Positions 10,575 to 64,000 are shown, numbered from the stretch's first letter. The stretch is 64,000 nt of DNA from Candidatus Parcubacteria bacterium (GCA_026395685.1 JAPLYG010000016.1:65035-129034); one strand, 5' to 3'. Program-made: numbers and translations. Notes: generated by a model not told the origin, from the sequence alone.

Positions 10575-10705
10575 GTAAATAACCAATCATCAATAATCAA
10601 CATCCAAACAAATCATAAATTCTAATTTTAAATATCAAAACAATTTAGAATTTAATTATTGTATATTAGTTATTGTTTGATGATTGCGTTATTGATTATT
10701 GGATA
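10575..10705. repeat. Family-A intergenic palindromic element (copy A1)
   Basis: Reads aaccaatcatcaataatcaacatccaaacaaatcataaattctaatttt ... caatttagaatttaatt ... attgtttgatgattgcgttattgattattgg. Its left arm would encode the first 11 codons of the track ORF 9185-10603. Confidence 0.65.
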
Positions 10706-11884
10706 TTATAACTGCAATAATTTATAAATATAGTTTTTAATATCCCATTCCTTTGCTCTCATTTTAGCATTTTCCGACATTTGTGTTAACTTGCTAATAT
10801 TTTGCAGGCTAAAATTAAGCTTATTCAAAAGTCCGATTTTACTGCCAGCCTCAAAAAGATAGCCATTTACACCTTCCTGCACCAGCTCCGATATGCCACC
10901 GATCGCTGAAGCAATGACCGGGGTGCTGAAATTAAAACTGTCATATATCACGCTGGGGGAATTTTCATAGCATAAAGACGGTACAATGGCATAATGTATT
11001 TTCTTAAAAACCTGCTGGCTGAGCAAATTGGCCGGAATATAGCCTAAAAACTCTACCCATTTTTTTCCTTGATATTCAGTATTTAACCTGTCAGCAAGCT
11101 TGCCATTACCCACCACATAGAGCTTTACCTCCTTATTATTTGCAAATTCCTGAAAAACATCCAACAGCAACAAAATGCCCTTATGCTCTTCCAATTGGCC
11201 CAAAAAAAGATAATTAACGGTCGAGTCAGCAATATTTTTTTTATAATTTTCATTTTCTAAGATAACAGGGTTTGGCAAAACAACTTTGCGTATTTTTTTA
11301 AAAAATCCAGCCTGATCATAAAAGTCGAGCAACCACCTTGAAGGTGAAATTATCACTGAAGCATTATTAAATAAGTATCTGGTAATAAGGGAGTATAAAT
11401 AGCAAGATAAAGGCTGCGTTTCCTGACCTTTGATTATTAAGCCGGAAGGATTTACCAATTGCACGTCATGCAAGGTATGAAAACATCTAGTTTTTGACTT
11501 CTTAATCGCCAGCAGAGTCAAATAGCCCAATCCTTTAAGATTATGGCTCAGGACTATATCTGGATTTTCCAGCTGTATGATTTTTTTAATCTGAAAATAT
11601 GAATGCAGATTAAAAGTGTCAATCAGATGCCAGATCAGACGCTTCCACCTTGGCTGGCTGCCAATATCGACAAAGGAAAAAATATTTTTCGGATAAAAAC
11701 GATAAATTTTTATATCATCCATTTCCGTTAAAAAAAACTTTGTTTTTTCCGGCTTGGCGGAAATAGTAATGACAAAAATATCATGGCCATCCTTTTTCAA
11801 TTCCTTGACCAGATTGGAAAAAACAACCTCAGCTCCCCCGCGGCGATAAGGTTTGTACAAACTGTTTATTAGGGCAATCTTCAT
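10706..11884 (-). CDS. Glycosyltransferase family 4
   Basis: The N-terminus is MKIALINSLYKPYRRGGAEVV. The C-terminus has an E-x7-E-like block (CYENSPSVIYDSFNFSTPVIASAIGGISELV). Confidence 0.8.
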   Translation of the reverse strand: MKIALINSLYKPYRRGGAEVVFSNLVKELKKDGHDIFVITISAKPEKTKFFLTEMDDIKIYRFYPKNIFSFVDIGSQPRWKRLIWHLIDTFNLHSYFQIKKIIQLENPDIVLSHNLKGLGYLTLLAIKKSKTRCFHTLHDVQLVNPSGLIIKGQETQPLSCYLYSLITRYLFNNASVIISPSRWLLDFYDQAGFFKKIRKVVLPNPVILENENYKKNIADSTVNYLFLGQLEEHKGILLLLDVFQEFANNKEVKLYVVGNGKLADRLNTEYQGKKWVEFLGYIPANLLSQQVFKKIHYAIVPSLCYENSPSVIYDSFNFSTPVIASAIGGISELVQEGVNGYLFEAGSKIGLLNKLNFSLQNISKLTQMSENAKMRAKEWDIKNYIYKLLQL

Positions 11885-13047
11885 AAATTTGGGGGGACTT
11901 TAACCAATTCTTCGTAAACTTTATTTAATTTATTAATCAAAACATCCTGGCTATACATTTTCTCGGCCCGTTCTTTGGCAGCCTGACCGAATTGAGACAA
12001 TAAGGCATCGTCCGTAAAAATTTTTCTGACTTTTATCACCAAGTCATGCTGGTCTAAAACTTCAAAAGTAAAGCCGCTGACTCTGTTTTCAAAAACACTG
12101 CGCACTCCAGGCAAATTAGCCGCCAGCACCGGCTTGGCACAAGCCATCGCTTCGATTAAAACAATGCCAAACGCTTCTGATTTATCAATTGACGGCAAAA
12201 TAATGGCATCTGCCAGATTATAAAAATTAACCAGCTCGCGGTCATGAGCAAAACCTGCAAATAAAATTTTATCGATCAAGCCCAAATCTAAAACATGCTT
12301 TTGATATTCATTTTTCAGATCACCTTCGCCGACAATAATAATTTTCAAATTATCCAGGCCGATTGCCTTATAAGAATCAATCAGGAAATGAATGCCTTTA
12401 AAATAATGGGCCTGGTCCAGCGCGCCGACAAAAAGCAGGACTTTCTCATTGGCTTTAATATCAAACTTTTTCATTAAAATTTGATCGTTTATCGCCGGTT
12501 TAAATATATTCAAATTCACGCTCGGTGGGATTTCAACAAATTTATCCGAACGCTGAATGATCAGCTCCTTGATATTGGAATTTTTGGCATAATCAAAGCT
12601 GGAAACAATCACCTTATCAGCGCTGGCAATTATCTTTGGCATAAAATGCTTGGTATGAAAAGAAAAAATACTTTTTTTCCAGCCGCTGCCGACCACATCC
12701 ATCTGATAATTTATGACTAATTTTAATTTCTTGCCTAAATATTTTTTTAACAGCCAGACAACCTCTGCCCCGCCAAAAAACGGATAATGGAGATTAACCA
12801 GATCAAAGTCTCTCAACTCCCAAAATAGCTGGGGCAAAAATCCGCTATTACCAAAGCTAAATAAAGGTTTGAGCCGCCTGACTTCAAATTCGGCAAATTT
12901 TACTTCATTATCCTTAGAATCAACTAATGGCGTGAAAACAGTGACCTGATGACCTAATTTTGACAAACCCAAAGCATAGTCATAAGCCACATTGCTGATG
13001 CCTCCTTTATATGGTTTAAACCTGCACACGACTTGAGCTATCTTCAT
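11881..13047 (-). CDS. Glycosyltransferase family 4
   Basis: The N-terminus is MKIAQVVCRFKPYKGGISNVAY. The C-terminus has SEAFGIVLIEAMACAKPVLAANLPGVRSVF. There is a 4-bp overlap with the upstream GT4. Confidence 0.8.
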   Translation of the reverse strand: MKIAQVVCRFKPYKGGISNVAYDYALGLSKLGHQVTVFTPLVDSKDNEVKFAEFEVRRLKPLFSFGNSGFLPQLFWELRDFDLVNLHYPFFGGAEVVWLLKKYLGKKLKLVINYQMDVVGSGWKKSIFSFHTKHFMPKIIASADKVIVSSFDYAKNSNIKELIIQRSDKFVEIPPSVNLNIFKPAINDQILMKKFDIKANEKVLLFVGALDQAHYFKGIHFLIDSYKAIGLDNLKIIIVGEGDLKNEYQKHVLDLGLIDKILFAGFAHDRELVNFYNLADAIILPSIDKSEAFGIVLIEAMACAKPVLAANLPGVRSVFENRVSGFTFEVLDQHDLVIKVRKIFTDDALLSQFGQAAKERAEKMYSQDVLINKLNKVYEELVKVPPNL

Positions 13048-15874: not shown

Positions 15875-15879
15875 AAGGC

Positions 15880-17496
15880 TTATTTTAAAGACATTGTAGA
15901 TTCAATTGTCGGCGCGTTAAGCTGCTCGGCAAAAGGATCAAAATTATAAACGGTTTCTAAGGGCTCTCCGACGCTATAGCTGATAAAAAATGATTCCGAA
16001 ATATCATTTACCTGAGTTTGCCAATATGGACCGTAATACCTGGTTAAAAAGTTCACATCTTTGATCCAGCGCAGTTTTGCGCCAATGGCGACGACATAGA
16101 CGCGCGGATCTGACTGGATTTTCAGCAGGCTGCCGGGACGATAAGTAACGAGGCCGGCCAGGGGCAATGAAGCCAAAACACTATCATCAACTATTTTAAT
16201 GTCTTTAAAAGTGCCAAACCAGTTGACATAGACTTTTTCATCAGGGAAAACATAGCGTTTGCCGTTATCCGCCAGATAATAAACAGTCGAACTAGCTCCT
16301 TTTATTAATTGATTGCTGGCTGATAAACTCTTAATCACATTAAAAATTTTTAGCGGATCAATCATGCCTTTGCCGATTTTTCCTTTCATGGTTAAATTCT
16401 GGCTGTCGATATTCCTGGTATTTTTCAAAATAAAATCACGGATTTCAATATTGGTAAGTTCGGGATAAGTTGACTTGATCAGGGCAGCAATGCCGGAAAC
16501 AACCGGTGCAGCCAAAGAAGTGCCTGAATAATCTCCTCCATAAAACTCTGACAAGCCCGGAACGGCGGGATTAACTACCTGCAAACCATAAAAATTGGAT
16601 CCGGGCGCAACAATGTCCAGACAAGACGAACCGTAATTAGAATAATAAGCTAATTTATCATCTTCATCAGTTGCACCGACTCCAATTACCATATTGGCGC
16701 CTGTATTTCCATCGTAACAAACCGGATACCTTTTTTCCAGATCTAAATTTATAGGATAAGCAATTTGAACCACATCATGCTGCTTTTCTCTGATTTCCCA
16801 AATGAACTCCTCATTACCGGCGGAAGCAACGATAATCAGTCCGGCATTATAAGCGCGATTAATGGCATTGGCAAAATCACCATCATACGGGATACTGACA
16901 AAACTCATATTTAAAATATCGGCTTTTTTATCAATTGCGTAATTAATAGCCTCAACCACATCGGGAATCGTGCCAGTGCCATACTCGTCCAATACCCGCA
17001 AGGGCATGATTTTTGTACTTTGCCAGGCAATACCGGCAATACCAATAGTATTATTGCCAATTGCTGCGGCGACACCGGCAACCAGGGTGCCATGGTAAAT
17101 TGCCTCTTTTTCACAAGAATTAGTTTCCAGGCAATCCAGAGCATAATCAGGAGCCGGATTATTATCATCGGCAATAAAATCCCAGCCATTAATATCATCA
17201 ATGTAGCCGTTCTTATCATTATCAATGCCGTCACCATCGATTTCAGCCTGATTAACCCAGACATTATCATGTAAATCAGGATGGGAAATATCAATACCCG
17301 AATCAATTACCGCAATAATAGTGTTTTTATGCTTTAAATTCTGTACCCAGATATCCGGCATATTCAAACGGCTCAGATACCATTGCCTGTAATAAAAAGG
17401 GTCATTGGGAGTAAGGCCCTGGGCAAAACAAAAATTAGCCAAAATAAATTGGGCTACTAAAATGACCATAATTACTCGACTTAACCTCATAATCAA
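15880..17496 (-). CDS. Secreted subtilisin-like serine protease (S8) with Ca-binding Asp-rich repeats and a C-terminal unnamed ~110-aa domain
   Basis: Has a signal peptide. The catalytic triad contexts are VIDSGIDISHPDL (Asp), HGTLVAGVAAA (His) and GTSLAAPVVSGIAAL (Ser). A DGDGIDNDKNGYIDDINGWD repeat is present. The C-terminal domain is shared with two surface proteins (see findings). Confidence 0.85.
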   Translation of the reverse strand: MIMRLSRVIMVILVAQFILANFCFAQGLTPNDPFYYRQWYLSRLNMPDIWVQNLKHKNTIIAVIDSGIDISHPDLHDNVWVNQAEIDGDGIDNDKNGYIDDINGWDFIADDNNPAPDYALDCLETNSCEKEAIYHGTLVAGVAAAIGNNTIGIAGIAWQSTKIMPLRVLDEYGTGTIPDVVEAINYAIDKKADILNMSFVSIPYDGDFANAINRAYNAGLIIVASAGNEEFIWEIREKQHDVVQIAYPINLDLEKRYPVCYDGNTGANMVIGVGATDEDDKLAYYSNYGSSCLDIVAPGSNFYGLQVVNPAVPGLSEFYGGDYSGTSLAAPVVSGIAALIKSTYPELTNIEIRDFILKNTRNIDSQNLTMKGKIGKGMIDPLKIFNVIKSLSASNQLIKGASSTVYYLADNGKRYVFPDEKVYVNWFGTFKDIKIVDDSVLASLPLAGLVTYRPGSLLKIQSDPRVYVVAIGAKLRWIKDVNFLTRYYGPYWQTQVNDISESFFISYSVGEPLETVYNFDPFAEQLNAPTIESTMSLK

Positions 17497-18017
17497 TCCG
17501 CTAAAACATTAATTTTAAAAACCGAATGATCCCCTAACTCATAGTTTCGCCATGAACAATATCTAAAAAGAGAAATATCAGATACTAAACCATGACTAAT
17601 TGGGTTATCATGAATATATTTTAATTTTTCTTCAAATTTCTTATGGGAATAAATATTAAAATCGAAAAATCGATGTTTCCATAAAGCTCCGCTACGTTGC
17701 AAATATTTATTGATCTTTCTAGCAGTAACCCCTTTTATTTTTTTGCCTATATAAGAGATACCAAACTCGTTAAGCGAAGATTCCGGGGTATCACCGAATT
17801 TATTCGGTGATCCGTAGGCAAACACTTGACCAATTAATAAATGAACATGATCGGGTACGATAACGAATCCATAAATATCAAAACTTAATTCCGTTCTCAA
17901 TCTATCTAATTCCTCTAAAAATATATCACAGCACTTATCATCTTTAAAAAACGGCACGTTATTTGCAGTTTTAAAAGTGACAAAGTGTATATGACCGGGG
18001 TCATCAAACTTTTCCAT
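17493..18017 (-). CDS. REP-associated tyrosine transposase-like (IS200/IS605 TnpA-like HuH) protein carrying an in-frame REP hairpin insertion
   Basis: The HuH motif is VPDHVHLLI and the catalytic Tyr context is YIHDNPISHGLV. The segment AYGSPNKFGDTPESSLNEFGISY is encoded by a copy of the REP palindrome (ggtatcaccgaatttattcggtgatccg) at about 17775-17835. Confidence 0.7.
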   Translation of the reverse strand: MEKFDDPGHIHFVTFKTANNVPFFKDDKCCDIFLEELDRLRTELSFDIYGFVIVPDHVHLLIGQVFAYGSPNKFGDTPESSLNEFGISYIGKKIKGVTARKINKYLQRSGALWKHRFFDFNIYSHKKFEEKLKYIHDNPISHGLVSDISLFRYCSWRNYELGDHSVFKINVLAD

Positions 18018-18044
18018 TTAAAAATAACATTATTTTTCTCATAA

Positions 18045-18330
18045 GCCTCATCGGGTATCACCGAATTTATTCGGTGATCCGTGCTCGCCCATACAACCCC
18101 GAATGAATTCAGGGTTACCCTGCGGAAGTTGTTCCAATCAAACGCGCAGTCTCGGGGTATCACCGAATTTATTCGGTGATCAGTCCGCGCCCATACAACC
18201 CCGAATGAATTCGGGGTTACCCTGTACAAATTGTTCAGGCAGAACTTTCGGATTGGGGGTATCACCGAATTTATTCGGTGATACGTCCGCGCCCATACAA
18301 CCCCGAATGAATTCGGGGTTACCCCGTGAA
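18045..18330. repeat. REP/BIME-like array of three ~100-bp units of two alternating palindromes
   Basis: Each unit has ggtatcaccgaatttattcggtgat, then gcgcccatacaa, then ccccgaatgaattcggggttaccc. It lies immediately adjacent to the RAYT-like gene. ORFs 17915-18265(-) and 18103-18381(+) are artefacts of this array. Confidence 0.8.
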
Positions 18331-18358
18331 TCCGTACGTGTCCATATAACTAAACTTA

Positions 18359-19717
18359 CTAAAGTCCTTTATCAACATTAATCGACGTGGCTGCATTTTG
18401 TACTGTTATAGGCGAAAAGTCGCTGGTACTGCTAATAGGTAAGCCCACTGTATAATTCACGAAAAACGGATCAGGCACATCTTCCACCAGACTGCCCCAA
18501 TTTGCGCCATAAAGGGCCACTGCAATGGCTTCCGTGGTAACCCAGCGCAAAGTACCCTTTGGGCCGACAGCGTAAACCTTGGGGTCAGTAGTGATTTTGA
18601 CCAATTTAACTCCGGGCTTATAAGTAACATTCCCGCCAATAGTAATAGTACCCAAATCCAAATCTGCGATAGTTACTATATTCAAAAAGTCAGGATACCA
18701 GGTTTTATAAGTATTTAAATTCGGAAAAACATAACGCTTACCGTCATTGCCAAAATAATAAAGCGCCGCGCCAGATGCCTTAATCAAATCCCCTGCTTTA
18801 TAGGCATTTACCGGTGTTGTGGGCGGAACTACAGGAGGAACTGCGATAGCGACATTAACAGTAATTTCTTCGCTTTGGCCTGGGTTACTACCCTGGTCAG
18901 AAGAAGTAACTTTAATCTTATGCTCGCCAGTGGCAATATTTTGCCAGACATATTGCCAGGTATAAGTCGTGTCATCAAAAATTGAAATTACATTTTTCTG
19001 CCCGTCAATATAAATAAAACGGTCTTTAATAGAAGTAGCGCCCTGATCACGAATCATGCCTTTAATCACAAACGAGTCGCTCTCAATTGTCTGGCCAGCC
19101 TGTAAATTTGTAAAGTTTACTTTTGGTCCCAGACTATCAACCGTAGTCAGCCCCACTACCTGCACATTATCATTAACAATATTTGCATTAGTCGGGCCAT
19201 TATTGCCTGAATCCATAAAAATACCCATATCACCCAAATCAAAACTTCCATTAGCATTAGTATCAATTAGTTTGGGAATCTGCATTTGGACAGAGCCTGT
19301 TTTAGTTATATAGGAAGAAATTTCCGCACTGACAAAATATCTCTGGCTGTCAGCAATATTTTCGCTCAAATTATTCAGATACCAGTTTTGCAGAGTGCTA
19401 AAGTAAATTAAATTCCCAATTTTACGGTCAATGCCCATGCCCTGAAAACCGACAGGTCCGTCATCAGCCCACAATGTCAGGTAATCAAGCTGGTACGCGT
19501 CAGTTAAAGTTCCCAAATTCTGCAGGCTTAGAGCTTTTAAAGTATCAGGCCTGGCTGTAACCAAAGTAAAATCAAAAACCAGGTTATCAAATGTACCCCG
19601 AAAAAAAGTATCATAAGGAACTTCAGTCTTAACTATTGATTGCGTGTCAAAAGCCAGGCTAAAATTTACGCTAAATAATACGCCCAAAATCACCAGAAAA
19701 AAAGTAAATTTTTTCAT
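18359..19717 (-). CDS. Secreted surface protein with Ig-like central region and C-terminal unnamed ~110-aa domain
   Basis: The likely start is MKKFTFFLVILGVLFSVNFSLA, a signal peptide. The C-terminal ~120 aa (ASGAALYYFGNDGKRYVFPNLNTYKTWYPDF...TDPKVYAVGPKGTLRWV...) are homologous to the S8 protease C-terminus and to the N-terminus of the 1198-aa protein. Confidence 0.55.
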   Translation of the reverse strand: MKKFTFFLVILGVLFSVNFSLAFDTQSIVKTEVPYDTFFRGTFDNLVFDFTLVTARPDTLKALSLQNLGTLTDAYQLDYLTLWADDGPVGFQGMGIDRKIGNLIYFSTLQNWYLNNLSENIADSQRYFVSAEISSYITKTGSVQMQIPKLIDTNANGSFDLGDMGIFMDSGNNGPTNANIVNDNVQVVGLTTVDSLGPKVNFTNLQAGQTIESDSFVIKGMIRDQGATSIKDRFIYIDGQKNVISIFDDTTYTWQYVWQNIATGEHKIKVTSSDQGSNPGQSEEITVNVAIAVPPVVPPTTPVNAYKAGDLIKASGAALYYFGNDGKRYVFPNLNTYKTWYPDFLNIVTIADLDLGTITIGGNVTYKPGVKLVKITTDPKVYAVGPKGTLRWVTTEAIAVALYGANWGSLVEDVPDPFFVNYTVGLPISSTSDFSPITVQNAATSINVDKGL

Positions 19718-19904: not shown

Positions 19905-19990
19905 TTAAATCGCTTTCCCTTCACCCGGGGTCTGGGGGCCGAACTAAGCGCCGTTATCAATGCTACGAACTTTCCATTTGCACTAGCGCA
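19905..19990 (+). ncRNA. Candidate structured small RNA / terminator-containing element (family C, copy 2; partial copy at 19797-19850)
   Basis: The stem ctgggggcc...ggcccccag encloses conserved gaactaagcg / tacgaac / cat.tgcactagcgcattga blocks, followed by a T-rich tract. A perfect AT-rich hairpin ggtacttttt-gctgtc-aaaaagtacc lies at 19995-20020. It is homologous to 30867-30990. Confidence 0.4.
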
Positions 19991-20199
19991 TTGAGGCCCC
20001 CAGCAGTTTTGGCGGTACTTTTTGCTGTCAAAAAGTACCAAATATTCAGGAGATACAATTATTTTGAATTATAAATATTTTTTGCTTTGCACAAATCAAT
20101 TTTACCATATAATTTATTGTTTGAAGTTATATTTTAAGTTGTATTATTAACAATTAAGTTTTTACTTCAAACTCACCTGGCTCATTACAGTGGCGTTTT

Positions 20200-23885: not shown

Positions 23886-24372
23886 ATTAATTTTATCCTT
23901 TCTTAACTCCTGAACAAATTTACGGATAAGAATATAAATTTTACCAAGCCCGAAGGCTCGACGGGGAAAATCCCCTGCCCATAAACTTTCAAAAGCCGAC
24001 CGGATAAATCCGACGTCGACCTTTACTTTTGAATGTTTAGGAACTTATATCCTTATTTAACCCGCGAAATCCATTCAAGAGGGTTAGTTAGCTACCCGAA
24101 ACCCGGATTTAATATCCAGGAGGGTAATTCCTATATACCCCCAAGGCATTTAGGAATCTGCACCAAAGGTGCAAACCCTGACTTTTCACTAAACTTAGTC
24201 AAAAGGCAAGGCCTGAACCGCACAAATAAATTTTAAATATCAAATTTTAAATTTAAATTGTAGGTGGATTGTGTTTAATTTTAAATTTTTAATTTTAAAT
24301 TTTAATTTTTGGAGTTTGTATTTTAATTTACAATAAATCATTTTCCAATATTTAAAACTTATAATTTAAAAT

Positions 24373-24756
24373 TTATAATTTTTCAAGATTCTTTTTATTC
24401 TCAATGGTAATTACGATTTTTGAAAATATCAGGATCAATTCATGAATTTCCTGCATTAATGGCTTGCCTTCAGTCTCTAACCCAGAGTTTGCCATAATAA
24501 CCAATCTTAACCAATATTTCGTTTCTTTTGCTTCTTTTTTACAGATACAAATTTTATTTTTAAAATCTTTCTCAGAACTTGCGCCATTTGCTTCATGATA
24601 ATTCGCTCCCACTTGTTCCTGACCTTACTATTTGTCTAATTATGGGTAAATTTACAGCGGTTTTGGGAATTTTTTTAGCAAATTTTATAATATTTTCGGC
24701 AAATACAATTGTTCTTTCTTCCAAATCAAATTTAAATTCTTTTTCCGACATTTATA
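24373..24756 (-). pseudogene. Four-helix-bundle protein gene (23S rRNA IVS / Avd-like family) disrupted by a frameshift
   Basis: The upstream minus-strand reading frame runs MSEKEFKFDLEERTIVFAENIIKFAKKIPKTAVNLPIIRQIVRSGTSGSELS and stops at about 24601. The family continues in another frame as GANYHEANGASSEKDFKNKICICKKEAKETKYWLRLVIMANSGLETE (ORF 24373-24612). The two halves together match the E-G-x-G-R-x-S-x-K-E-F...E-x-x-Y-W-L pattern of IVS-family proteins. Confidence 0.5.
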
Positions 24757-24836
24757 ATTTAAAATTTATAATTTAAAATTTTCAACTCATTATATTTACT
24801 TGCTATTTGGGATTTGTCTTTTGGTACTTCAATCAA

Positions 24837-27214: not shown

Positions 27215-27369
27215 TTTTGTCCACACTAATCTAGACAAAGTAAATAGGCTGAGGGTTAAGGTAATGATGCTGGTAAGTGAATTAGGCAAAGTGAATAGTA
27301 AAAATTACCAATTACCTAACCCTTACATTTACCAGCATCCTAACACTAACACCATTCACCAACTTATAT
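27215..27369. repeat. Family-B intergenic imperfect palindrome (copy B1)
   Basis: The left arm is gagggttaaggtaatgatgctggtaagtgaattaggcaaagtgaatag. The right arm is ccaattacctaacccttacatttaccagcatcctaacactaacaccattcacc. It abuts the ATG of the 27370 gene. Confidence 0.6.
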
Positions 27370-27663: not shown

Positions 27664-27800
27664 TTGAAATAAATAATCAATACTCAATCATCAAACAATA
27701 TCAAATATCTAATAACAAAATTCTAAACTTGTTTGGTAATTTGATATTATAGTTTAGTAATTGTTTGATTATCCCGAAGGGATCCCTTTGGGATTGATGA
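27664..27800. repeat. Family-A intergenic palindromic element (copy A2)
   Basis: The left part is aaataatcaatactcaatcatcaaacaatatcaaat...ctaaac, the centre is gtttagtaatt, and the right part is attgtttgattatc...gattgatgattgatgtttgatgatt. Confidence 0.6.
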
Positions 27801-27821
27801 TTGATGTTTGATGATTAAAAA

Positions 27822-27862
27822 ATAACAAAACCCCGCGTCCTTTCGGAACACGGGGTCTTGTT
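27822..27862. terminator. Intrinsic terminator between convergent genes
   Basis: Hairpin aaaaccccgcgtcctttcggaacacggggtcttgttttg. Confidence 0.5.
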
Positions 27863-30755: not shown

Positions 30756-30866
30756 ATGATCTCTTATAATAGGATACCTACGGCAAAATAGCTGGCGGTA
30801 TTTATGTTACAGGCTACGACCGCGATAGCGGTTAATTAAAACTAACGAACCTAAACGTTTTTATCC

Positions 30867-41121: not shown

Positions 41122-41580
41122 ATGCCCTCCCTAGCTATCAATAAAAAAGCCCGATTTGACTACGAAATACTGGAAACTCATGAAGCCGGTATTGTTTTGA
41201 GCGGACAAGAAGTCAAATCAGCTAAAGCCGGCCAAATAAGTTTAAACGGCGCTTATGTTGTAGTTGATAATAACCGCAATCTAAATTTACTGAATGCCTC
41301 TATAACGCCGTACAAAATGGCAGGCCCCTTGCCCAGCTATGATCCTGGCCGTACCCGCCGGCTGCTTTTGCACAAGAATGAAATCGATCATTTAGCAGGA
41401 AAAATCCAGCAGCAAGGGTTGACGCTGATACCCCTTTCATTGTATACTAAGCATAACAAAATTAAGGTTGAAATCGGACTTGGCCGGGGTAAAAAAAAGT
41501 ATGATAAGCGCGAAACGATCCGCAAAAGAGAAGATGACCGCCAAATCAGCCGTCTTTTGAAAATGAAAAATCACCAATAA
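41122..41580 (+). CDS. smpB: SsrA-binding protein SmpB
   Basis: Opens KKARFDYEILETHEAGIVLSGQEVKSAKAGQISLNGAYV and has the basic C-terminal tail typical of SmpB. Confidence 0.9.
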   Translation: MPSLAINKKARFDYEILETHEAGIVLSGQEVKSAKAGQISLNGAYVVVDNNRNLNLLNASITPYKMAGPLPSYDPGRTRRLLLHKNEIDHLAGKIQQQGLTLIPLSLYTKHNKIKVEIGLGRGKKKYDKRETIRKREDDRQISRLLKMKNHQ

Positions 41581-41700
41581 CACAATCATCAATCATCAAG
41601 CAAATTCTAAACCCAAATGACTAAATAACTAATTTGGTAATTAGAATTTCGGTAATTAAGTATTGTTTGGATATTGTTTATTGATTATTGGTTATTAAAC
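41581..41700. repeat. Family-A intergenic palindromic element (copy A3) between smpB and ssrA
   Basis: Reads cacaatcatcaatcatcaagcaaattctaaac ... tttggtaattag ... attgtttggatattgtttattgattattggttatta. Confidence 0.6.
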
Positions 41701-41703
41701 CAT

Positions 41704-51682: not shown

Positions 51683-51795
51683 CCCAGGACTCCCCTTGCC
51701 AAGGTAATAAAATATTGCTATAATATTCTCACAAGGTCTAAAAACCTTATTTTTAATTTATAAATATTCCTAAGTTTTAACTTTTGAATTAATTT

Positions 51796-51870
51796 GGAGT
51801 GGTAGCTCAGTTTGGTTAGAGCGCCGCCCTGTCACGGCGGAGGTCGCGGGTTCGAGCCCCGTCCACTCCG
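51796..51870 (+). tRNA. tRNA-Asp (GTC)
   Basis: Cloverleaf as follows. Acceptor ggagtgg / ccactcc + g. D-arm gctc-agtttggtt-agagc. Anticodon arm ccgcc-ctGTCac-ggcgg. T-arm gcggg-ttcgagc-cccgt. CCA is not encoded. Confidence 0.9.
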
Positions 51871-52580: not shown

Positions 52581-52717
52581 AATGTTGAAATATTCAATAA
52601 TAAAATAAGTCCACTCTGCTCCAACAAAAAGACAATCATTATCGGGTGTTTTCTTGTCTACAACAATTTAAAAAACCCCATTGATGTTATATCTCCGGGG
52701 TTGGTTGTGTCGGGGGA

Positions 52718-53023
52718 TTAGATCCCAAATCGGAGGTCTGAACCCATCTCCTCCAGCTCCTTATTTAAGCTGGGGATGTCGGTCTGCTTCCTCCATTTTT
52801 TCCAGTACGCTCGCTGCTCTTTTTCGGACATCATAAAGAAGTCTGATGGTTTGAGGCAGAAATTTTCTTCCCGCTCTTTGCGTTCCGCGGCTGCCGCTCG
52901 CCTCACATAGTGTTCGATCAACCGAAGCAAGGACACCACGCCCACTGCCTTTAAATAGACCTTTTGCTGGGCAAGTGTCATCTTACTGAACTCAAAAATT
53001 TTCAGAAACGATCCCTTCGCCAT
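52718..53023 (-). CDS. Hypothetical protein in GC-richer islet
   Basis: 101 aa, basic, coiled-coil-like. The local GC is visibly higher than the surrounding genome. Confidence 0.4.
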   Translation of the reverse strand: MAKGSFLKIFEFSKMTLAQQKVYLKAVGVVSLLRLIEHYVRRAAAAERKEREENFCLKPSDFFMMSEKEQRAYWKKWRKQTDIPSLNKELEEMGSDLRFGI

Positions 53024-53180: not shown

Positions 53181-53441
53181 TTATTTTGTGATCACGAATT
53201 TTTCTCGGCTTTGGGGCCAATCCTCAATAAAGGCAAAGAATTCTGACAACCGCAGATTAAAGATCTGCGCAAAGACAATCAGCTCGCTGATCTGCTGGGG
53301 CGAACCATACAGCTCCAGCATATAGATATCGTGCTCAGTCTTCTTCAGCTTTTCTGCCAGTTCAGCCATTGACCAGTTCTGCTGTTTCCTGAGGAATTTG
53401 ATGACCTGACGGACTTTCTTATTGTATTCGCAGAGCTCCAT
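53181..53441 (-). CDS. XRE-family (Cro/C1-type) helix-turn-helix transcriptional regulator
   Basis: Shows QNWSMAELAEKLKKTEHDIYMLELYGSPQQISELIVFAQIFNLRLSEFF. It is GC-richer than the flanks. Confidence 0.55.
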   Translation of the reverse strand: MELCEYNKKVRQVIKFLRKQQNWSMAELAEKLKKTEHDIYMLELYGSPQQISELIVFAQIFNLRLSEFFAFIEDWPQSREKFVITK

Positions 53442-53555
53442 CGCTGTCTCCCTTCTTTCATTGAAACTTTGATACCAGCCTTTTAAATTATCACATTATG
53501 TTTAAAATGTCAATTGCCGCAAAAAGCACCCGATCTCTCAGGTGCCACCCTATTA

Positions 53556-53700
53556 ATCACCAAGCTTCAATAACCAATATTCAAACAAATTTTAAATTCT
53601 AATACCAAATTACTAAAAAAAATTAGGGTTTTGGAATTAGTTATTTATTATTGTTTGATGCTTGATTCTTGGTTATTGATTATTCATTCAGCATCTTAAT
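53556..53700. repeat. Family-A intergenic palindromic element (copy A4), right arm overlapping the last codons of pgi
   Basis: Reads caataaccaatattcaaacaaattttaaattctaataccaaattactaaaaaaaattagggttttggaattagttatttattattgtttgatgcttgattcttggttattgattatt. Confidence 0.6.
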
Positions 53701-54984: not shown

Positions 54985-55150
54985 ATTAGTTAAAGGTGTT
55001 TAGGTTAGGAGGCTGGTAAATTATGGTGTATAGTGCTTAGGTTAAGAGACTGCTAAGTGCCTAGTGTTGAGATAAAGTGCTTTATCTTACCTTACCAAAC
55101 CACCCTTCACTTACAGCGCCTTTGCCCATTTACTATTCACTGCGTGACTA
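54985..55150. repeat. Family-B intergenic imperfect palindrome (copy B5) in divergent promoter region
   Basis: Reads ggtgtttaggttaggaggctggtaaattatggtgtatagtgcttaggttaagagactgctaagtg ... ccttaccaaaccacccttcacttacagcgcctttgcccatttactattcac. Confidence 0.55.
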
Positions 55151-57660: not shown

Positions 57661-60024
57661 TCACCTCTTCCGATTTAAGTCAATGGTAGTCTTTATAACC
57701 GTATCGGGATTTAATGACAGGCTATCAATCCCCTCGTCTCTTAAGAATTTAGCATATTCAGGAAAATCGCTGGGCGCCTGTCCGCAAATGCCGATTTTTA
57801 TTTTCTTTTGTTTGGCTATTTTAATTGCCTGCTTAAGCAAAAGTTTCACAGCCTCATTGCGTTCATCAGCAATTTGAGAAATTAATTCTGAGTCGCGGTC
57901 CAAACCTAAAGTCAGCTGGGTCAAATCATTTGACCCGATTGAAAAACCGTCAAAAATATCAGCAAATTTATCAGCTAGAATAACATTGCTGGGAATTTCT
58001 ACCATGACATAGACTTCCAGGCCGTTTTTACCCTGAGTCAATCCGTTTTGCCTTAAAATTTTAATTACCTTTTTACCCTCATCAATCGTGCGGCAAAACG
58101 GGATCATAACCTTAACATTGGTTAAGCCCATTTCATCCCTGACTTTTTTAATGGCTTTACATTCCAAATCAAAAGCCGGCTTAAATTTAGGATCATAATA
58201 GCGTGAAGCCCCGCGCCAGCCAATCATGGGATTGGCTTCTTTGGGTTCATATAATTCTCCGCCAATAAGATTGGCATATTCATTGGTTTTAAAATCTGAA
58301 AAACGCACAATCACATCTTTGGGATAAAAAGCAGCCGCAATCTGAGCAATGCCATAAGCTAATTGGTCGACATAAAATTGCGTTTTATTTTGATACGCCG
58401 AAGTTAATTCCTCAATTTCACTTTTTAAATTCGTCGATAATCCGTGATAATTCGTAAGCGCTAGCGGATGAATTTTAATATATGAAGTAATAATAAATTC
58501 CAAACGGGCCAGGCCAACTCCGCTATTTGGCAAAAAAGAATATTTAAATCCCTGAGTCGGATCACCCAAGTTCATCATTATATTAACTTTTGGCTTTCTA
58601 ATTTTTTTCAAATTGGTTGTCTTGACCTTAAAAGGCAATGTTCCCTGATAAACCTTGCCAATTTCGCCTTCAGCGCAGCTGACTGTCACCGGCTGTCCGT
58701 CTTTCAATATTTTCCTGGCATTTTTTGTACCTACAATCGCCGGTACGCCCAATTCGCGGGAAACAATGGCTGCATGGCAGGTGCGACCGCCGGAATCCGT
58801 TATAATAGCAGCGGCTTTTTTCATGACCGGCTCCCAATCGGGATCTGTCATTTCTGTAACCAAAACTTCTCCGGGCTGAAACTGATTTAATTCCTTAACA
58901 TGTTTTATTACCCGCACTTTACCGCTTGCTATTTTCTGTCCGATACTTTCGCCGGTAATCAAAATTTTACTTTTTTGACTTAATAAAAATTGTTCTAAAA
59001 TATTGGGATTAACGCCGAATTTAACTGTTTCCGGCCGAGCCTGAACAATATATAATTTCTTTTCCCTGCCGTCTTTAGCCCATTCAATATCCATGGGGCG
59101 TTTATAATATTTTTCAATCAGCAATGCCCATTTGGCTAATTGTAAAATTTCCTTATCAGACAAAGAAAACTGCTTGCGCTCTTTCCTGGAAACCAAAATA
59201 TTTTTAGTCGAAATTGCTAAATTTTGAGTGTAAATTAATTTTTGTTTTTTGGTGCCTAATTCCTTTTTAATAATTGCCATCTTTGGCTTATAGACAAAAA
59301 ATTCATCGGGAGTTACCCGCCCTTTTACCACATTTTCTCCCAAGCCATAAGCTGAATTAATTATTACTAAATCCTTAAAACCGGATTCAGTATCAATAGT
59401 AAATATTACCCCGGCTGTTGCCAAATCAGACCTTATCATTTTCTGAATGCCGACTGAAAGATAGACTTTGTCATGCCTGAACTTCTGATCAATACGGTAT
59501 GAAATTGCCCGGTCAGTATAAAGGGAAGCAAAACATTTTCTAACGGCCAAAAGTAATTCTTTAGAACCTCTAATATTCAGATAAGACTCCTGCTGGCCGG
59601 CAAACGATGCTGTAGGCAGATCCTCAGCCGTGGCAGATGAACGCACAGCCACGTCAACATTAACTGCGCGATATTGCTTAGATAAATTCTGGTAATCTTT
59701 AATAATCTGAGTTTCCAAATCAGCGGGGAATTTACCGCGTAAAACCATTTGCCTGATTTTTTGTCCGGCTATTTCCAGCTCCTTGCCCTTATTTTTGCCC
59801 AATTTTTGCAGAATTTTATTTATTTCTCTGCGTAAATTATTGTACTCTAAAAAGTACTTGAAAGCTTCAGCAGTAGTACAGAATCCGTCAGGAATAATAA
59901 TGCCTTTAGGTTTTAATTTCCTCAGCATTTCGCCCAAAGAGGCATTTTTTCCGCCGACTTTGCCGACGTCCTTAATTGTGACTTGGGAAAATTTTAAAAT
60001 GTAATTTTTCATAATTTTATTCAT
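57661..60024 (-). CDS. ppsA: Phosphoenolpyruvate synthase (pyruvate, water dikinase)
   Basis: The N-terminal ATP-grasp begins VGGKNASLGEM. The phospho-His motif is GGRTCHAAIVSRELGVPAIVG. A C-terminal PEP-utilising TIM-barrel domain is present. The track start at 60033 is a TTG inside repeat element A5, so the first ATG (60024) is preferred. Confidence 0.9.
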   Translation of the reverse strand: MNKIMKNYILKFSQVTIKDVGKVGGKNASLGEMLRKLKPKGIIIPDGFCTTAEAFKYFLEYNNLRREINKILQKLGKNKGKELEIAGQKIRQMVLRGKFPADLETQIIKDYQNLSKQYRAVNVDVAVRSSATAEDLPTASFAGQQESYLNIRGSKELLLAVRKCFASLYTDRAISYRIDQKFRHDKVYLSVGIQKMIRSDLATAGVIFTIDTESGFKDLVIINSAYGLGENVVKGRVTPDEFFVYKPKMAIIKKELGTKKQKLIYTQNLAISTKNILVSRKERKQFSLSDKEILQLAKWALLIEKYYKRPMDIEWAKDGREKKLYIVQARPETVKFGVNPNILEQFLLSQKSKILITGESIGQKIASGKVRVIKHVKELNQFQPGEVLVTEMTDPDWEPVMKKAAAIITDSGGRTCHAAIVSRELGVPAIVGTKNARKILKDGQPVTVSCAEGEIGKVYQGTLPFKVKTTNLKKIRKPKVNIMMNLGDPTQGFKYSFLPNSGVGLARLEFIITSYIKIHPLALTNYHGLSTNLKSEIEELTSAYQNKTQFYVDQLAYGIAQIAAAFYPKDVIVRFSDFKTNEYANLIGGELYEPKEANPMIGWRGASRYYDPKFKPAFDLECKAIKKVRDEMGLTNVKVMIPFCRTIDEGKKVIKILRQNGLTQGKNGLEVYVMVEIPSNVILADKFADIFDGFSIGSNDLTQLTLGLDRDSELISQIADERNEAVKLLLKQAIKIAKQKKIKIGICGQAPSDFPEYAKFLRDEGIDSLSLNPDTVIKTTIDLNRKR

Positions 60025-60155
60025 AATAATCAAACATCAATAATCAATATACAAACAAACACTAAATTATAATTGCCAAATAACTAAACAGATTTAAAAT
60101 TATACATTTAGTTATTAGATATTGTTTGATTATTGGTGATTATTTAATACAAGAA
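60025..60155. repeat. Family-A intergenic palindromic element (copy A5)
   Basis: Reads aataatcaaacatcaataatcaatatacaaacaaacactaaattataa ... tttagttattag ... atattgtttgattattggtgattatt. Confidence 0.65.
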
Positions 60156-63100: not shown

Positions 63101-63953
63101 CTGTGCCGGAAGTGGTAAGGTTGCCGTTGATTGTCGTTACTCCGGTTAAAGTTTTGACGCCGCTGGTGCTTAAAGATAAATTGGCATAAGTAACCGGCTT
63201 TACTGTCTGCGCTGTGCCGTTGTAATTGACTGTATTGCCGGCATTGCTGGAAGCATCTAACCCTGTGATGGTTAAATTTGCTGCCGTGGCTCCAATATTT
63301 AAAGTAGCGCTAGCGCCATTGGTCAAAGTACTGGACCCGGCTAATTTCGTGCTTACAGTCAAAATGCCGTTATTTGTGACTGTATTATTAACTGTTAAAA
63401 ATGGTATTGCTCCGGTGCCGGAAATAGTAGTGCTGGCTCCGGTCATGGTAATGCTTACTGTTGTGCTGGCTATACTGGTACTGTTGGCAATTAAACTGCC
63501 TGAAGTAGTTATAATGGCTGCGGCTGATCCGGTTATATTGCCCCCGCTATTTACAGCTACTCCGCCGGAACCGACTGTCAAAGTATAGGTAGTTGCGCCA
63601 AAAGCCAAAGTGCCGGTAATACTTAAACTCTGAGCAACTGCACCGCTTGATAAATCCATAGTAACTATCGCTCCGGTGGCAATCGTCACATCATCACTGG
63701 CTGTCGGCACATTGCCACAGCTCCAGGTGCCTGGAGTATTCCAATTACCGCTACTCGCGGCATTACAGCCAGCTGCTTTTACCTTATGAAAACCTAAAAA
63801 GTAAATGACAAAAATACTCACCGCTAATAAAAACACGGAAAGCACTATTTTTTTTGCTCCCAAGCCCCCTGAAACTCGTTTTTTTACTTTAATGGGCTCT
63901 TTTTTCTTCAATTTTGTTTTCTTAGAATTAGCCACATTTATTAAAATAATCAA
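60156..63953 (-). CDS. Giant surface protein (1265 aa) with N-terminal TM anchor and Thr/Gly/Asn/Ser-rich beta-helix-like repeats
   Basis: The N-terminal basic stretch and TM are KKIVLSVFLLAVSIFVIYFLGF. Long imperfect repeats of the form G-x-T-x-T/N follow, then a Cys-containing C-terminal region. Confidence 0.6.
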   Translation of the reverse strand: MIILINVANSKKTKLKKKEPIKVKKRVSGGLGAKKIVLSVFLLAVSIFVIYFLGFHKVKAAGCNAASSGNWNTPGTWSCGNVPTASDDVTIATGAIVTMDLSSGAVAQSLSITGTLAFGATTYTLTVGSGGVAVNSGGNITGSAAAIITTSGSLIANSTSIASTTVSITMTGASTTISGTGAIPFLTVNNTVTNNGILTVSTKLAGSSTLTNGASATLNIGATAANLTITGLDASSNAGNTVNYNGTAQTVKPVTYANLSLSTSGVKTLTGVTTINGNLTTSGTAVLTATTAANMTIGGDFTVGSFSTFTTGSNYTLAVTGNTTVTGTLANSGTAVKTYYGDVTINNTGAFRNANNSNITFKNDLTANGVLDVGSGIMTFDANSPIFNCDSAQTIAKLTVNGVTLTNNCTSALTVSTALDGTGGVTQGTNARLTITGTSTITTLTATASGNYVRYGGSAQTVKAVEYYNLELYQTGLKTLTDVTTIDNNLTLWNSATGITGANLTVGGALLLGTGCSLSIGSNYTFDVTGTLTGSGTMINSGTGVKIYRGSVTNSSFTNPDNSNITFQGNLTNNGTLSLGTGTITFDANAPVISGNVTIYDMVVNGVTVQNGSTNLIVTHSLSGTGTFNQNINTKIYIGGTCDIANFTATNPGNTVIYNGSSQTIRGIYYRNLTINQASGSATLGGDATVALVLTLTSGNIVTGSNSLYINVTGSVSRNSGYIIGNLKKYFSGGALSKTFEIGDSSNYTPADIAFGSITTPGDLTISTTAGDHPNISSANLNPSKSVNRYWTATNSGIVFNNYSAIFNFINPGDLDGGTNTSNLLVGKWSGSAWSYPTVGTKTSTSTQTTGLTSFSDFQLGELGNTEPTATTPGTISQYADASGYISFQTTIADGDSSETKLKVEYSDDGGTNWYDPDLVSAAPNNGAIDLDDVQTYQVGTVNGIDTDDFASVTLTIVWDTKSASNGNGTLTGDQSDIKVRVTPNDFTDDGTPQSSANFEVDNLVPTFVVNEGTEAGPVATDTINVTAADANLNASSVQYGFSADSTCNGSDTYGNSFTNSTDFTISTTYTDYLCVKGADTLGNVGYQLVGKLNVLGAEILEMNIDVSIEPEMTISLSKSYCEFGNFIASEISTCSYDIDISTNASNGYVAYIRTIGNFSYGSNNFTNVSDGYVTANYEEYGLSTSESDSVDIVKINNGLSCTQLNNQGITESNATALATTDKSFAIAFGTGDDSITLCHSASISGATLPGSYSQTVIITIVASF

Positions 63954-64000
63954 ACCTCAATAATCAATCAACAAACAAATACTAAATTCTAACCTTCAAA
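63954..64000. repeat. Family-A element (copy A6, truncated by window end)
   Basis: Reads aataatcaaacctcaataatcaatcaacaaacaaatactaaattctaa, the same left arm as A1-A5. It abuts the start codon of the giant gene. Confidence 0.55.

What the first reader, a model, noticed from the sequence alone, without database searches (positions are those of the whole stretch)
10575..64000. Family-A recurrent ~120-bp intergenic imperfect palindromes (6 copies in 64 kb)
Copies lie at 10575-10705, 27664-27800, 41581-41700, 53556-53700, 60025-60155 and 63954-64000 (truncated). They share a left arm (c)aataatcaa-N-caataatcaat...caaacaaa...actaaattctaa and a central tttagtaatt(ag) segment. The right arm is a(t)attgtttgat(t)attgg(t)-attat, which is the imperfect reverse complement of the left arm. 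Three copies abut the start codon of a minus-strand gene: the FecR-like gene, ppsA and the giant 1265-aa gene. Their left arms create spurious TTG or ATG N-terminal extensions in the ORF track. One copy lies between smpB and ssrA, and one overlaps the pgi stop codon. The element is either a MITE-like mobile unit or a lineage-specific promoter / 5'-UTR / terminator module. The A5 copy contains tgtataat, an extended -10-like sequence.
Basis: seen in the sequence. Interest (0 to 1): 0.6.

Follow-up and report, generated by a model that had tools for sequence, protein, structure and literature searches.

The report
Gene-less rRNA-intervening-sequence-like hairpin repeats

Summary
Six copies lie at the stated coordinates. 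A model built from any four finds the fifth at E ≤ 4e-15.

The window comes from a Patescibacteria (CPR) genome close to Buchananbacteria.

Each arm uses three of the four bases. The left arm has almost no G and the right almost no C. Both arms show a strong 7-nt period (NNNNCAA / TTGNNNN).

[quoted passage not shown] Family A is therefore that element without its gene. S23p genes with such arms occur in 11 of 15 loci that were fetched by element DNA patterns alone.

ORF-less copies also sit at helix tips of 23S and 16S rRNA and in RNase P RNA of other CPR contigs.

Copies are present or absent at orthologous spacers. Two sites (pgi 3′ end, smpB–ssrA) are conserved among relatives.

I found no compensatory arm evolution, no G·U strand bias, no promoter or terminator signal, and no target-site duplication.

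Best reading: a selfish, IVS-type hairpin insertion tolerated in transcripts, probably cut by RNase III (inferred, not tested). It is a new variant of a known kind.

The parts
10575..10714 (.). Family A copy A1. The G-free arm is 10578-10640 and the C-free arm is 10643-10707. It fills the spacer between the GT4 stop (10706-08, minus strand) and the FecR-like start (ATG about 10571).
   Evidence: The halves align 50/62 and 53/64 to the two arms flanking S23p in L069.
27665..27818 (.). Family A copy A2, between the convergent HTH_17 gene (stop 27661-63, plus strand) and the GT4 gene (stop 27877, minus strand). It carries a nested 20-nt GC-rich mini-palindrome at 27773-27792. A canonical GC-stem plus T-run terminator follows at 27828-27860.
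41571..41702 (.). Family A copy A3, between smpB and tmRNA (41704-42087). The smpB stop TAA (41578-80) and its last 3-4 codons lie inside the first arm units. Orthologous copies exist in L233 and L235. L234 has a 49-nt direct heptamer array instead.
53552..53690 (.). Family A copy A4, in the pgi 3′ UTR. It overlaps the pgi stop (53680-82, minus strand). On the minus strand it is followed by an intrinsic terminator (about 53518-53550) and then by the promoter and SD of the HTH_3 gene. An orthologous copy in L109 carries a 65-nt GC-rich insertion.
60023..60148 (.). Family A copy A5. It fills the spacer between the stop of the 1265-aa G8-domain gene (60156-58) and ppsA (ATG 60012). Relatives L109 and L111 have no element here. 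They have a terminator, a TGTGTTATAAT promoter and a roughly 150-nt leader instead.
63941..64000 (.). Family A copy A6. Only the left arm is present because the window ends. It lies about 10 nt upstream of the probable GTG start (63935) of the 1265-aa gene.
24221..24800 (-). Cargo-bearing element of the same class. It is a frameshifted S23p / four-helix-bundle gene (24373-24751) bracketed by AT-only heptamer arrays (TTTAAAT type; 24221-24372 and 24752-24800).
   Evidence: (I13, I21). The fused translation matches PF05635 at 65.6 bits and TIGR02436 at 83.7 bits.
6427..6950 (-). Cargo-bearing element of the same class. It is a GxxExxY / PDDEXK_3 nuclease-fold gene (6461-6913) bracketed by inverted ACTAAT / ATTAGT arrays ('family C').
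   Evidence: (D7). PF13366 matches at 107.5 bits and TIGR04256 at 105.6 bits.
27253..27365 (.). Example of 'family B', an ORF-less palindrome of the same class with the opposite arm order: the C-free arm GGTAAGGTAATGATGCTGGTAAGTG comes first and the G-free arm second. It ends 4 nt before the HTH_17 ATG. Further copies lie at 41001-41121, 43820-43935, 44600-44713 and 54990-55140.
   Evidence: (D11, I16-I18). Arms of a similar type flank S23p in L063.

Best explanation
Family A is the ORF-less, miniature form of an intervening-sequence (IVS)-type inverted-repeat element that is widespread in Patescibacteria (CPR).

The full form has two 55-70-nt arms, each built of 7-nt units, bracketing a small S23p / four-helix-bundle gene. 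In family A that gene is replaced by a loop of a few bases.

Shown here:
- The element is a dispersed repeat family.
- It shares its arms with the S23p-bearing form.
- It comes and goes at orthologous sites.
- In other CPR genomes it has been inserted at helix tips of 23S and 16S rRNA and in RNase P RNA.
- In this window it occupies only transcribed spacers: just after stop codons, in 3′ UTRs upstream of true terminators, between cistrons, and in the leader of tmRNA.

Inferred, not shown:
- It persists because, once transcribed, the arms pair into a self-contained A·U-rich stem of about 45-55 bp that does not disturb the host RNA.
- As with classical rRNA IVSs, host RNase III probably cleaves that stem. 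This would remove the insert from structural RNAs and cut polycistronic mRNAs between cistrons.
- After cleavage the downstream gene would keep a short, C-free and therefore unstructured leader, which would suit an organism in which most genes lack a Shine-Dalgarno sequence.

How the DNA copies spread is unknown, and so is the role of S23p.
For: 1. Real family.

2. Same arms as the S23p element:
- A1, A3, A4 and A5 left halves align 48-52 of 57-65 nt to the L069 left arm. Their right halves align 40-53 of 49-69 nt to the L069 right arm. The two matches abut within each copy.
- The ORF between the L069 arms matches PF05635 at 41.7 bits (cut-off 33.8) and TIGR02436 at 63.6 bits.
- The right-arm matches in L069 and L004 were not part of the retrieval pattern.

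3. Generality:
- tblastn finds S23p homologues in 15 loci that were fetched only by element-derived DNA patterns.
- In 11 of these 15 loci the inverted-repeat score of the flanks is at or above the 95th percentile of 409 background ORFs.
- In L157 the pattern occurs on both sides of the ORF in inverted orientation.

4. The window itself holds an S23p pseudogene and a GxxExxY gene, each bracketed by heptamer arrays.

5. Insertion into conserved RNAs:
- 23S rRNA: L119 has at least five insertions; L168/L159, L122, L226 and L228 each have one.
- 16S rRNA: L191.
- RNase P RNA: L020, in the P15-P17 region.
- The 23S insertions mapped to the Rfam model (L168, L119) lie in terminal loops of helices, and L122 shows empty homologous loops at two L119 sites, for example GCCCGCC-TCTT-GGCGGGC.

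6. Presence and absence among relatives: the AI-2E spacer is filled only in L233, the ppsA 5′ site only in the window, and the pgi 3′ site is absent in L111.

7. Age: orthologous copies at the pgi 3′ end and in the smpB-ssrA spacer share roughly 75-80% of aligned element columns (my count from the alignments).

8. The element supplies the stop codon and last codons of smpB and pgi.

9. Literature:
- IVSs are stem-loop elements cut by RNase III, and some carry S23p (PMC4990558).
- Short ORF-less insertions in CPR rRNA genes are described as uncharacterised and 'probably IVS' (PMC11270868).
Against: - None of the six window copies is in an rRNA gene, so the defining location of an IVS is not met here.
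- RNase III cleavage was not tested, and I did not check whether this lineage has rnc.
- There is no sign of selection for RNA pairing. Mismatches compatible with G·U pairing are equally common on the transcribed strand (54) and the other strand (52).
- A left arm pairs as well with right arms of other copies (score 50.6) as with its own (54.4).
- RNAalifold gives a covariation term of +0.4, and the paired columns are mostly invariant CAA/TTG.
- No target-site duplication, no near-identical copies (pairwise 60-79%) and no transposase with matching ends were found.
- The CAA/TTG triplets are conserved at a 7-nt period across distant CPR lineages. That looks more like sequence-specific constraint than neutral decay of a selfish insert.
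- The outside loci were chosen by patterns taken from the element, so part of their similarity to it is by construction.
Confidence: 0.68

Rival explanations
1. The element is a domesticated gene-expression module. The C-free heptamer arm placed 6-17 nt upstream of a start codon would act as an unstructured, SD-independent translation-initiation leader, or as a binding array for S1- or CSP-type proteins. The complementary arm would act as an anti-leader that masks it in read-through transcripts.
For: - In about 19 of 46 elements one end lies 6-17 nt (mode 11-12) from an outward ATG with no SD in between, while the gaps on the stop-codon side range from -14 to more than 500 nt.
- Most genes in the window lack an SD.
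- Copies at the pgi 3′ end and in the smpB-ssrA spacer are conserved in relatives.
- L234 has a one-armed heptamer array at the same place before tmRNA.
- TAACTGA heptamer arrays just upstream of SD-less starts are a published precedent (PMC4679880).
Against: - A2 and A4 have no start codon next to either arm and lie in 3′ UTRs.
- Copies also precede RNA genes (tmRNA here; a tRNA in L230) and sit inside rRNA and RNase P RNA, where translation is irrelevant.
- S23p-bearing copies show the same spacing to host start codons. The spacing may therefore only reflect where insertions are tolerated in very short spacers.
Confidence: 0.14
2. The arms are arrays of 7-bp protein-binding sites in DNA. They would be heptad operators or recognition sites for S23p or another oligomeric protein, and the palindrome would reflect two-fold symmetric binding rather than an RNA hairpin.
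For: - The 7-nt period is strong.
- CAA/TTG triplets are invariant while the four positions between them vary.
- There is no compensatory evolution and no strand bias in wobble-type mismatches.
- The same motifs recur across distant CPR lineages.
- From my own knowledge: plasmid pSM19035 omega repressor binds runs of 7-bp heptads in direct or inverted order, and S23p-family proteins are toroidal pentamers (PMC4990558).
Against: - No binding protein has been identified.
- A 7-bp period does not match the DNA helical repeat.
- Different heptamer families (A, B, C and the AT-only type) coexist in one genome, so several specificities would be needed.
- Location inside rRNA genes argues for neutrality at the RNA level rather than for DNA regulation.
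Confidence: 0.1
3. The element is a transcription signal: a bidirectional intrinsic terminator or a portable promoter.
For: - It is a long hairpin directly after stop codons.
- TATTAA-like hexamers lie 5-6 nt before the tmRNA 5′ end and before some ATGs.
- A5 contains tgtataat.
Against: - Promoter-like sites are no more frequent than in shuffles, and no terminator-like site falls in an element.
- Canonical terminators follow A2 and A4, and canonical TTGACA-N17-TATAAT promoters exist elsewhere in this lineage.
- Sister copies lie inside 23S, 16S and RNase P RNA genes.
Confidence: 0.04
4. The copies are not homologous. They would be independently generated AT-rich low-complexity palindromes produced by replication slippage of 7-nt units.
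For: - The arms are low-complexity and heptamer-periodic.
- Orthologous spacers turn over quickly between different repeat types.
Against: - The motif order is conserved over about 125 nt.
- Leave-one-out E-values are 4e-15 or better.
- Shuffles give no matches.
- Orthologous copies align along their length.
- Both halves match the L069 arms at 80-83%.
Confidence: 0.03

Closest known systems
rRNA intervening sequences (IVS) of Coxiella, Leptospira, Xanthomonas, Salmonella and Yersinia (PMC4990558; other examples from my own knowledge)
   Same: - Complementary termini form a long stem-loop.
- Presence among relatives is sporadic.
- Some members carry the S23p (PF05635) ORF in the loop and others have no ORF.
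- Sister copies of family A sit at helix tips of 23S and 16S rRNA.
   Different: - The six window copies lie in mRNA spacers and in the tmRNA leader, not in rRNA.
- The element is a multi-copy dispersed family (six copies in 64 kb).
- The arms are 7-nt-periodic and use three of the four bases.
- It also occurs in RNase P RNA.
- RNase III excision has not been shown.
ERIC/IRU of enterobacteria and Correia/NEMIS elements of Neisseria (my own knowledge)
   Same: They are imperfect palindromes of about 100-150 bp, located in transcribed intergenic regions or UTRs and co-transcribed as hairpins. Correia hairpins are RNase III substrates.
   Different: - There is no sequence relationship.
- Correia elements have a TA target duplication and defined TIRs. 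No duplication was seen here.
- No partner bearing S23p is known for ERIC or Correia elements.
- They have no heptamer periodicity.
Rickettsia palindromic elements (RPE) (my own knowledge)
   Same: They are selfish palindromic repeats in reduced genomes. They are tolerated inside genes, RNA genes included, because they fold or insert harmlessly.
   Different: RPEs are often inserted in frame in protein-coding genes. Family A only overlaps the last few codons and the stop codon.
Intergenic heptamer arrays: cyanobacterial STRR repeats (my own knowledge) and TAACTGA repeats of Beggiatoaceae, cyanobacteria and Bacteroidetes (PMC4679880)
   Same: They are 7-nt tandem units in intergenic DNA, often a few nucleotides upstream of SD-less start codons. 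Their patchy distribution across phyla is unexplained.
   Different: Those are mostly direct arrays. Family A is two inverted arrays forming a hairpin, and it is linked to S23p.
REP elements with their RAYT transposase
   Same: They are dispersed palindromes, and a true REPtron is present in this window (RAYT gene at 17493-18017).
   Different: REPs here are GC-rich hairpins of about 30 nt clustered next to the RAYT gene. Family A is about 125 nt, AT-rich, and not associated with the RAYT gene.

Membership tests
rRNA intervening sequence (IVS) | Inserted in a 16S or 23S rRNA gene at a helix tip. | tested here: not met
   The window has no rRNA gene, and all six copies lie in mRNA spacers or the tmRNA leader. 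Sister copies in other CPR contigs do meet this feature.
rRNA intervening sequence (IVS) | Bordered by complementary sequences that form a stable stem-loop. | tested here: met
   Minimum free energies are -21 to -41 kcal/mol, with z-scores down to -5.4. About 76% of aligned arm positions are complementary.
rRNA intervening sequence (IVS) | Excised from the transcript by RNase III without religation. | not testable with these tools
rRNA intervening sequence (IVS) | Some members carry an S23p (PF05635) ORF between the arms. | tested here: met
   L069 and L004 carry S23p between arms of family-A type. Eleven of 15 S23p loci have inverted heptamer arms. The window copies themselves have no ORF.
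rRNA intervening sequence (IVS) | Sporadic distribution among related genomes. | tested here: met
MITE | Short, non-coding, multi-copy, with terminal inverted repeats. | tested here: met
MITE | Target-site duplication flanking each copy. | tested here: inconclusive
   No direct repeat is visible at the edges of A1-A5. Comparisons of filled and empty sites lack conserved spacer flanks. At rRNA sites the insert replaces a loop with no obvious duplication.
MITE | An autonomous partner with the same ends that encodes a transposase. | tested here: not met
   The larger partner with the same arms encodes S23p, which has no known transposase activity. The RAYT gene in the window goes with different, GC-rich REPs.
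MITE | Near-identical copies that indicate recent transposition. | tested here: not met
   Pairwise identity among window copies is 60-79%.
TIGR (Tas-associated) guide-RNA arrays | [quoted passage not shown] | tested here: not met
   The copies are dispersed singletons. No Tas-like domain appears among the window ORFs scanned. There are zero RTGATGA and zero CTGA motifs in any copy.
Intrinsic terminator | A GC-rich stem followed by a T-run. | tested here: not met
   No terminator-like site falls in an element. True terminators lie beside A2 and A4.
Sigma-70 promoter | -35 and -10 hexamers at 16-18-nt spacing, shared by the copies. | tested here: not met
   Counts are at or below the shuffle expectation, and no site is shared between copies.
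REP / REPtron | Palindromes of about 20-40 nt clustered with a RAYT gene. | tested here: not met
   Family A is about 125 nt and AT-rich, and it is not next to the RAYT gene at 17493-18017.

The most novel reading that the evidence does not exclude
S23p together with heptamer-repeat arms could be a distinct kind of mobile element in CPR bacteria. It would colonise any transcribed locus, including mRNA spacers, tRNA and tmRNA leaders, rRNA and RNase P RNA. It would be rendered harmless at the RNA level by host RNase III, which makes it a functional analogue of an intron without splicing. ORF-less miniatures such as family A would be mobilised in trans. This would explain the long-unexplained origin of rRNA intervening sequences and give a role to the S23p/Avd-like protein family. 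Some copies may have been co-opted as cistron separators and SD-less leaders.
Probability: 0.3. Interest if true: 0.8.

Novelty: new variant of a known kind. Interest (0 to 1): 0.62.

Why it matters
rRNA intervening sequences have been known since 1990, but their origin, their mobility and the role of their S23p gene remain open (PMC4990558). Short ORF-less insertions in CPR rRNA genes are listed as uncharacterised (PMC11270868).

The result here links three things into one sequence family:
- a dispersed intergenic repeat;
- S23p genes that lie outside rRNA;
- the helix-tip insertions in CPR rRNA and RNase P RNA.

If that link holds, IVSs are not specific to rRNA. They would be the rRNA-resident members of a genome-wide hairpin element. 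The questions of how IVSs move and what S23p does would then become testable by comparative genomics, because each genome would offer many copies.

There is also a practical point for annotation. The arms create false TTG/ATG N-terminal extensions, supply stop codons, and inflate rRNA and RNase P RNA genes enough to break model-based detection. L030 RNase P RNA falls below the Rfam threshold for this reason.

Tried and rejected
1. Genome-wide scan. The source genome was not recovered. Look-ups of the window's own SmpB and PpsA found no record. No whole-genome copy number is therefore available.

2. Phage origin. One chance match in 2.9 million viral contigs, with no element there.

3. Known RNA family. 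Rfam finds only tmRNA and tRNA in the window.

4. TIGR-Tas arrays, raised by a literature hit. Rejected because there is no array, no Tas gene and no box C/D motif.

5. Promoter or terminator. Rejected.

6. Strand-specific RNA selection. G·U-compatible mismatches number 54 on the transcribed strand and 52 on the other strand.

7. Compensatory evolution of the arms. Own-arm and cross-copy complementarity are equal, and the RNAalifold covariation term is +0.4.

8. Common orientation of the six copies. This was an artefact of building the model from them.

9. Target-site duplication. None was recognisable.

10. RAYT as the mobilising enzyme. It is associated with a different, GC-rich REP family.

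11. Literature search for MITEs or palindromic repeats in CPR. Nothing relevant was found in the held library.

Full report
OBSERVATION

The six copies exist where stated. A profile built from five of them finds only these six places in the window. In leave-one-out tests each copy is recovered at E between 1e-23 and 4e-15. The core pattern occurs 4 times, against 0.00 in shuffles. Each copy folds into one long imperfect hairpin.

- The left arm has 0-2 G in 60-65 nt and the right arm has 1-3 C, so each arm uses three of the four bases.
- The arms have a strong 7-nt period. Identity at lag 7 is 0.52, against 0.33 in shuffles, and it is 0.55 in 31 elements from other contigs. The conserved part of each unit is CAA on the left arm and TTG on the right.
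- The element is effectively symmetric, so the apparent common orientation of the copies has no meaning.

SOURCE AND CONTEXT

PpsA, read from the ATG at 60012, is 100% identical to a protein of a 'Candidatus Parcubacteria' MAG and 86% identical to one from Buchananbacteria. The window is therefore from the Candidate Phyla Radiation (CPR).

Pfam annotation of the flanking genes places every copy in a transcribed spacer:
- A1 lies between the GT4 stop and the FecR-like start.
- A5 lies between the stop of the G8-domain giant gene and ppsA.
- A6 lies upstream of that giant gene.
- A3 lies between smpB and tmRNA.
- A4 lies between the pgi stop and a canonical terminator.
- A2 lies between the HTH_17 stop and a canonical terminator.

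The elements begin 0-10 nt from a stop codon. For pgi and smpB the stop codon and the last codons lie inside the first arm units. Most genes in the window have no Shine-Dalgarno motif.

Family A is not alone. The window holds other palindrome families with the same design: three-letter arms built of 7-8-nt units. I call them family B (GGTAAAGATGCTAGTAAGTG type), family C (ACTAAT type) and an AT-only TTTAAAT type.

RELATIVES

Syntenic contigs from relatives were fetched.
- The pgi 3′ copy is orthologously present in L109. It shares roughly 75-80% of aligned element columns with the window copy (my count from the alignment), carries a 65-nt GC-rich insertion, and is followed by the same terminator. 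It is absent in L111.
- The smpB-ssrA copy is present in L233 and L235. L234 has a 49-nt direct heptamer array instead.
- The ppsA 5′ copy is unique to the window. Relatives have a terminator, a TGTGTTATAAT promoter and a structured leader there.
- The spacer after the AI-2E transporter gene holds a family-A copy only in L233. The window, L234 and L235 have unrelated spacers of 97, 73 and 33 nt.

The element is therefore gained or lost at some sites and is old at others.

THE WIDER FAMILY

Together they still yielded 68 loci with profile matches. The named ones are Falkowbacteria, Moraniibacteria, Microgenomates, other Patescibacteria, Omnitrophota and a few MAGs with other labels. Their arms use other heptamers (CCAAATY, GCACCAA / TTGGTGC) around the same CAAACAAAT..TCTAAAT core. 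Part of this similarity is by construction, because the loci were selected with patterns taken from the element.

In about 19 of 46 elements one end lies 6-17 nt from an outward ATG with no SD in between.

KEY RESULT 1: COPIES INSIDE RNA GENES

Rfam shows that many of these elements lie inside structured RNA genes.
- 23S rRNA: L119, L168 (and L159, which carries an identical element and flanks), L122, L226 and L228.
- 16S rRNA: L191. The gene is 1646 nt against a 1533-nt model, and the element accounts for the excess.
- RNase P RNA: L020, in the P15-P17 region.
- L030 has three copies in an RNase-P-like region that no longer reaches the Rfam threshold.

Where I mapped the 23S insertions to the Rfam model (L168 and L119), they replace terminal loops of helices. 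An alignment of five 23S genes shows empty homologous loops in L122. For example, GCCCGCC-TCTT-GGCGGGC in L122 corresponds to a 157-nt insert in L119. The same alignment shows at least five such inserts in the one L119 gene.

An element tolerated in the middle of 23S, 16S and RNase P RNA cannot be an obligate promoter or terminator. It must be structurally self-contained in the RNA.

KEY RESULT 2: THE S23p-BEARING FORM

In L069 and L004 a 124-aa ORF sits between a family-A left arm and a family-A right arm. [quoted passage not shown]

The halves of A1, A3, A4 and A5 align at about 80-83% to these two arms, and the two matches abut within each window copy. Family A therefore equals the L069 element minus its ORF.

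tblastn finds S23p homologues in 15 loci that had been fetched only through DNA patterns from the element. In 11 of them the flanks are inverted heptamer arms, scoring at or above the 95th percentile of 409 background ORFs.

The window itself has two cargo-bearing elements of the same design:
- a frameshifted S23p gene (24373-24751) between TTTAAAT arrays;
- a GxxExxY / PDDEXK_3 gene (6461-6913) between family-C arrays.

COMPARISON WITH THE LITERATURE

IVSs are described as parasitic stem-loop elements of rRNA genes. They are excised by RNase III, some carry S23p, and their origin is unknown (PMC4990558). For CPR, short ORF-less rRNA insertions are called uncharacterised and 'probably IVS', and 23S_rRNA_IVP ORFs were seen in rRNA insertions (PMC11270868). 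Searches of the held library found no description of these elements as a dispersed intergenic family or in RNase P RNA.

TESTS OF MECHANISM

- G·U-compatible mismatches number 54 on the transcribed strand and 52 on the other strand.
- A left arm pairs as well with other copies' right arms as with its own: 50.6 against 54.4.
- RNAalifold finds no covariation.

The palindrome is therefore a family-level consensus property. Either both arms decay from a palindromic master copy, or both are held to the same motifs. It is not maintained copy by copy through compensatory change.

Promoter and terminator scans are negative. There is no target duplication, no near-identical pair of copies, and no matching transposase. 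The RAYT gene at 17493-18017 belongs to a separate GC-rich REP family.

CONCLUSION

Family A is real. It is best explained as the ORF-less miniature of an S23p-carrying, IVS-type hairpin insertion element of CPR bacteria.

Shown here: family membership, shared arms with the S23p form, insertion into RNA genes elsewhere, presence and absence at orthologous sites, and an exclusively transcribed location in the window.

Inferred: folding in the transcript, RNase III cleavage, separation of cistrons, and a possible benefit as an SD-less leader.

Unknown: the DNA mobility mechanism, the role of S23p, and the cause of the 7-nt period.

Noticed in passing
window 17493-18338 and 29259-29524: A REPtron. 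ORF 17493-18017 (minus strand) is a REP-associated tyrosine transposase (NF047646, 92.3 bits). GC-rich REP-like hairpins (GGGGTATCACCGAATTTATTCGGTGATCC) lie inside the gene (17784-17815) and in a 102-nt tandem array at 18051-18338. An inverted copy of the array lies 11 kb away (170 nt, 92% complementary). A second, partial RAYT-like ORF lies at 2717-3406.
   Followed up: partly
window 27773-27792; L109 about 18440-18505; L235 about 10465-10500: Small GC-rich mini-palindromes are nested inside family-A arms. In two orthologous series they sit just 5′ of the CAAACAAAT core. They look like a second layer of insertion.
   Followed up: no
window 51795-52611: tRNA-Asp (51795-51871) is followed by 124-nt direct repeats. 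51863-51986 and 52013-52136 are identical, and 52488-52611 is 78% identical. The last two bracket a GIY-YIG ORF (52197-52484). This looks like an integration site or a homing-endonuclease cassette.
   Followed up: no
window about 40780-40965: A candidate small RNA lies upstream of smpB, with a TTGACA-N17-TGATAAT promoter and a GAAGGCAAGTTGCCTTCTTTCTTT terminator. It is conserved in L233, L234 and L235 and has no Rfam match.
   Followed up: partly
window 27253-27365, 41001-41121, 43820-43935, 44600-44713, 54990-55140: 'Family B' palindromes have the opposite arm order: the C-free arm GGTAAAGATGCTAGTAAGTG comes first and the G-free arm second. They often end a few nucleotides before a start codon. 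At the smpB 5′ site each relative carries a different repeat family, so spacers turn over quickly.
   Followed up: partly
window 41704-42087: The ARAGORN tag peptide for the window tmRNA (AATIWTFNA**) looks miscalled. Relatives give ANTFLSGVKSAFAFNFAPVAA, and the window sequence encodes a near-identical tag.
   Followed up: partly
window 19916-20001 and 30864-30949: An 86-nt GC-rich repeat (73% identity) lies in two long intergenic regions. It has no Rfam match and its nature is unknown.
   Followed up: no
whole window: Most genes lack a Shine-Dalgarno motif. Several have a TATAAT-like hexamer 6-7 nt before the ATG (for example 29604 and 52197), which suggests leaderless mRNAs. The few genes with a clear GGAGG are the small HTH and mobile-looking ones (52718-53023, 53181-53441).
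   Followed up: partly
L119 6638-10243; L030 6400-7640: One CPR 23S rRNA gene carries at least five heptamer-palindrome insertions and is 3606 nt long against a 2925-nt model. One RNase-P-like locus carries three copies and falls below the Rfam threshold. Such inserts can hide RNA genes from annotation.
   Followed up: partly
L038 5901-7122; L230 374-855: S23p-bearing elements also lie in the 23S-5S spacer (on the opposite strand to the rRNA) and about 10 nt upstream of a tRNA gene.
   Followed up: no
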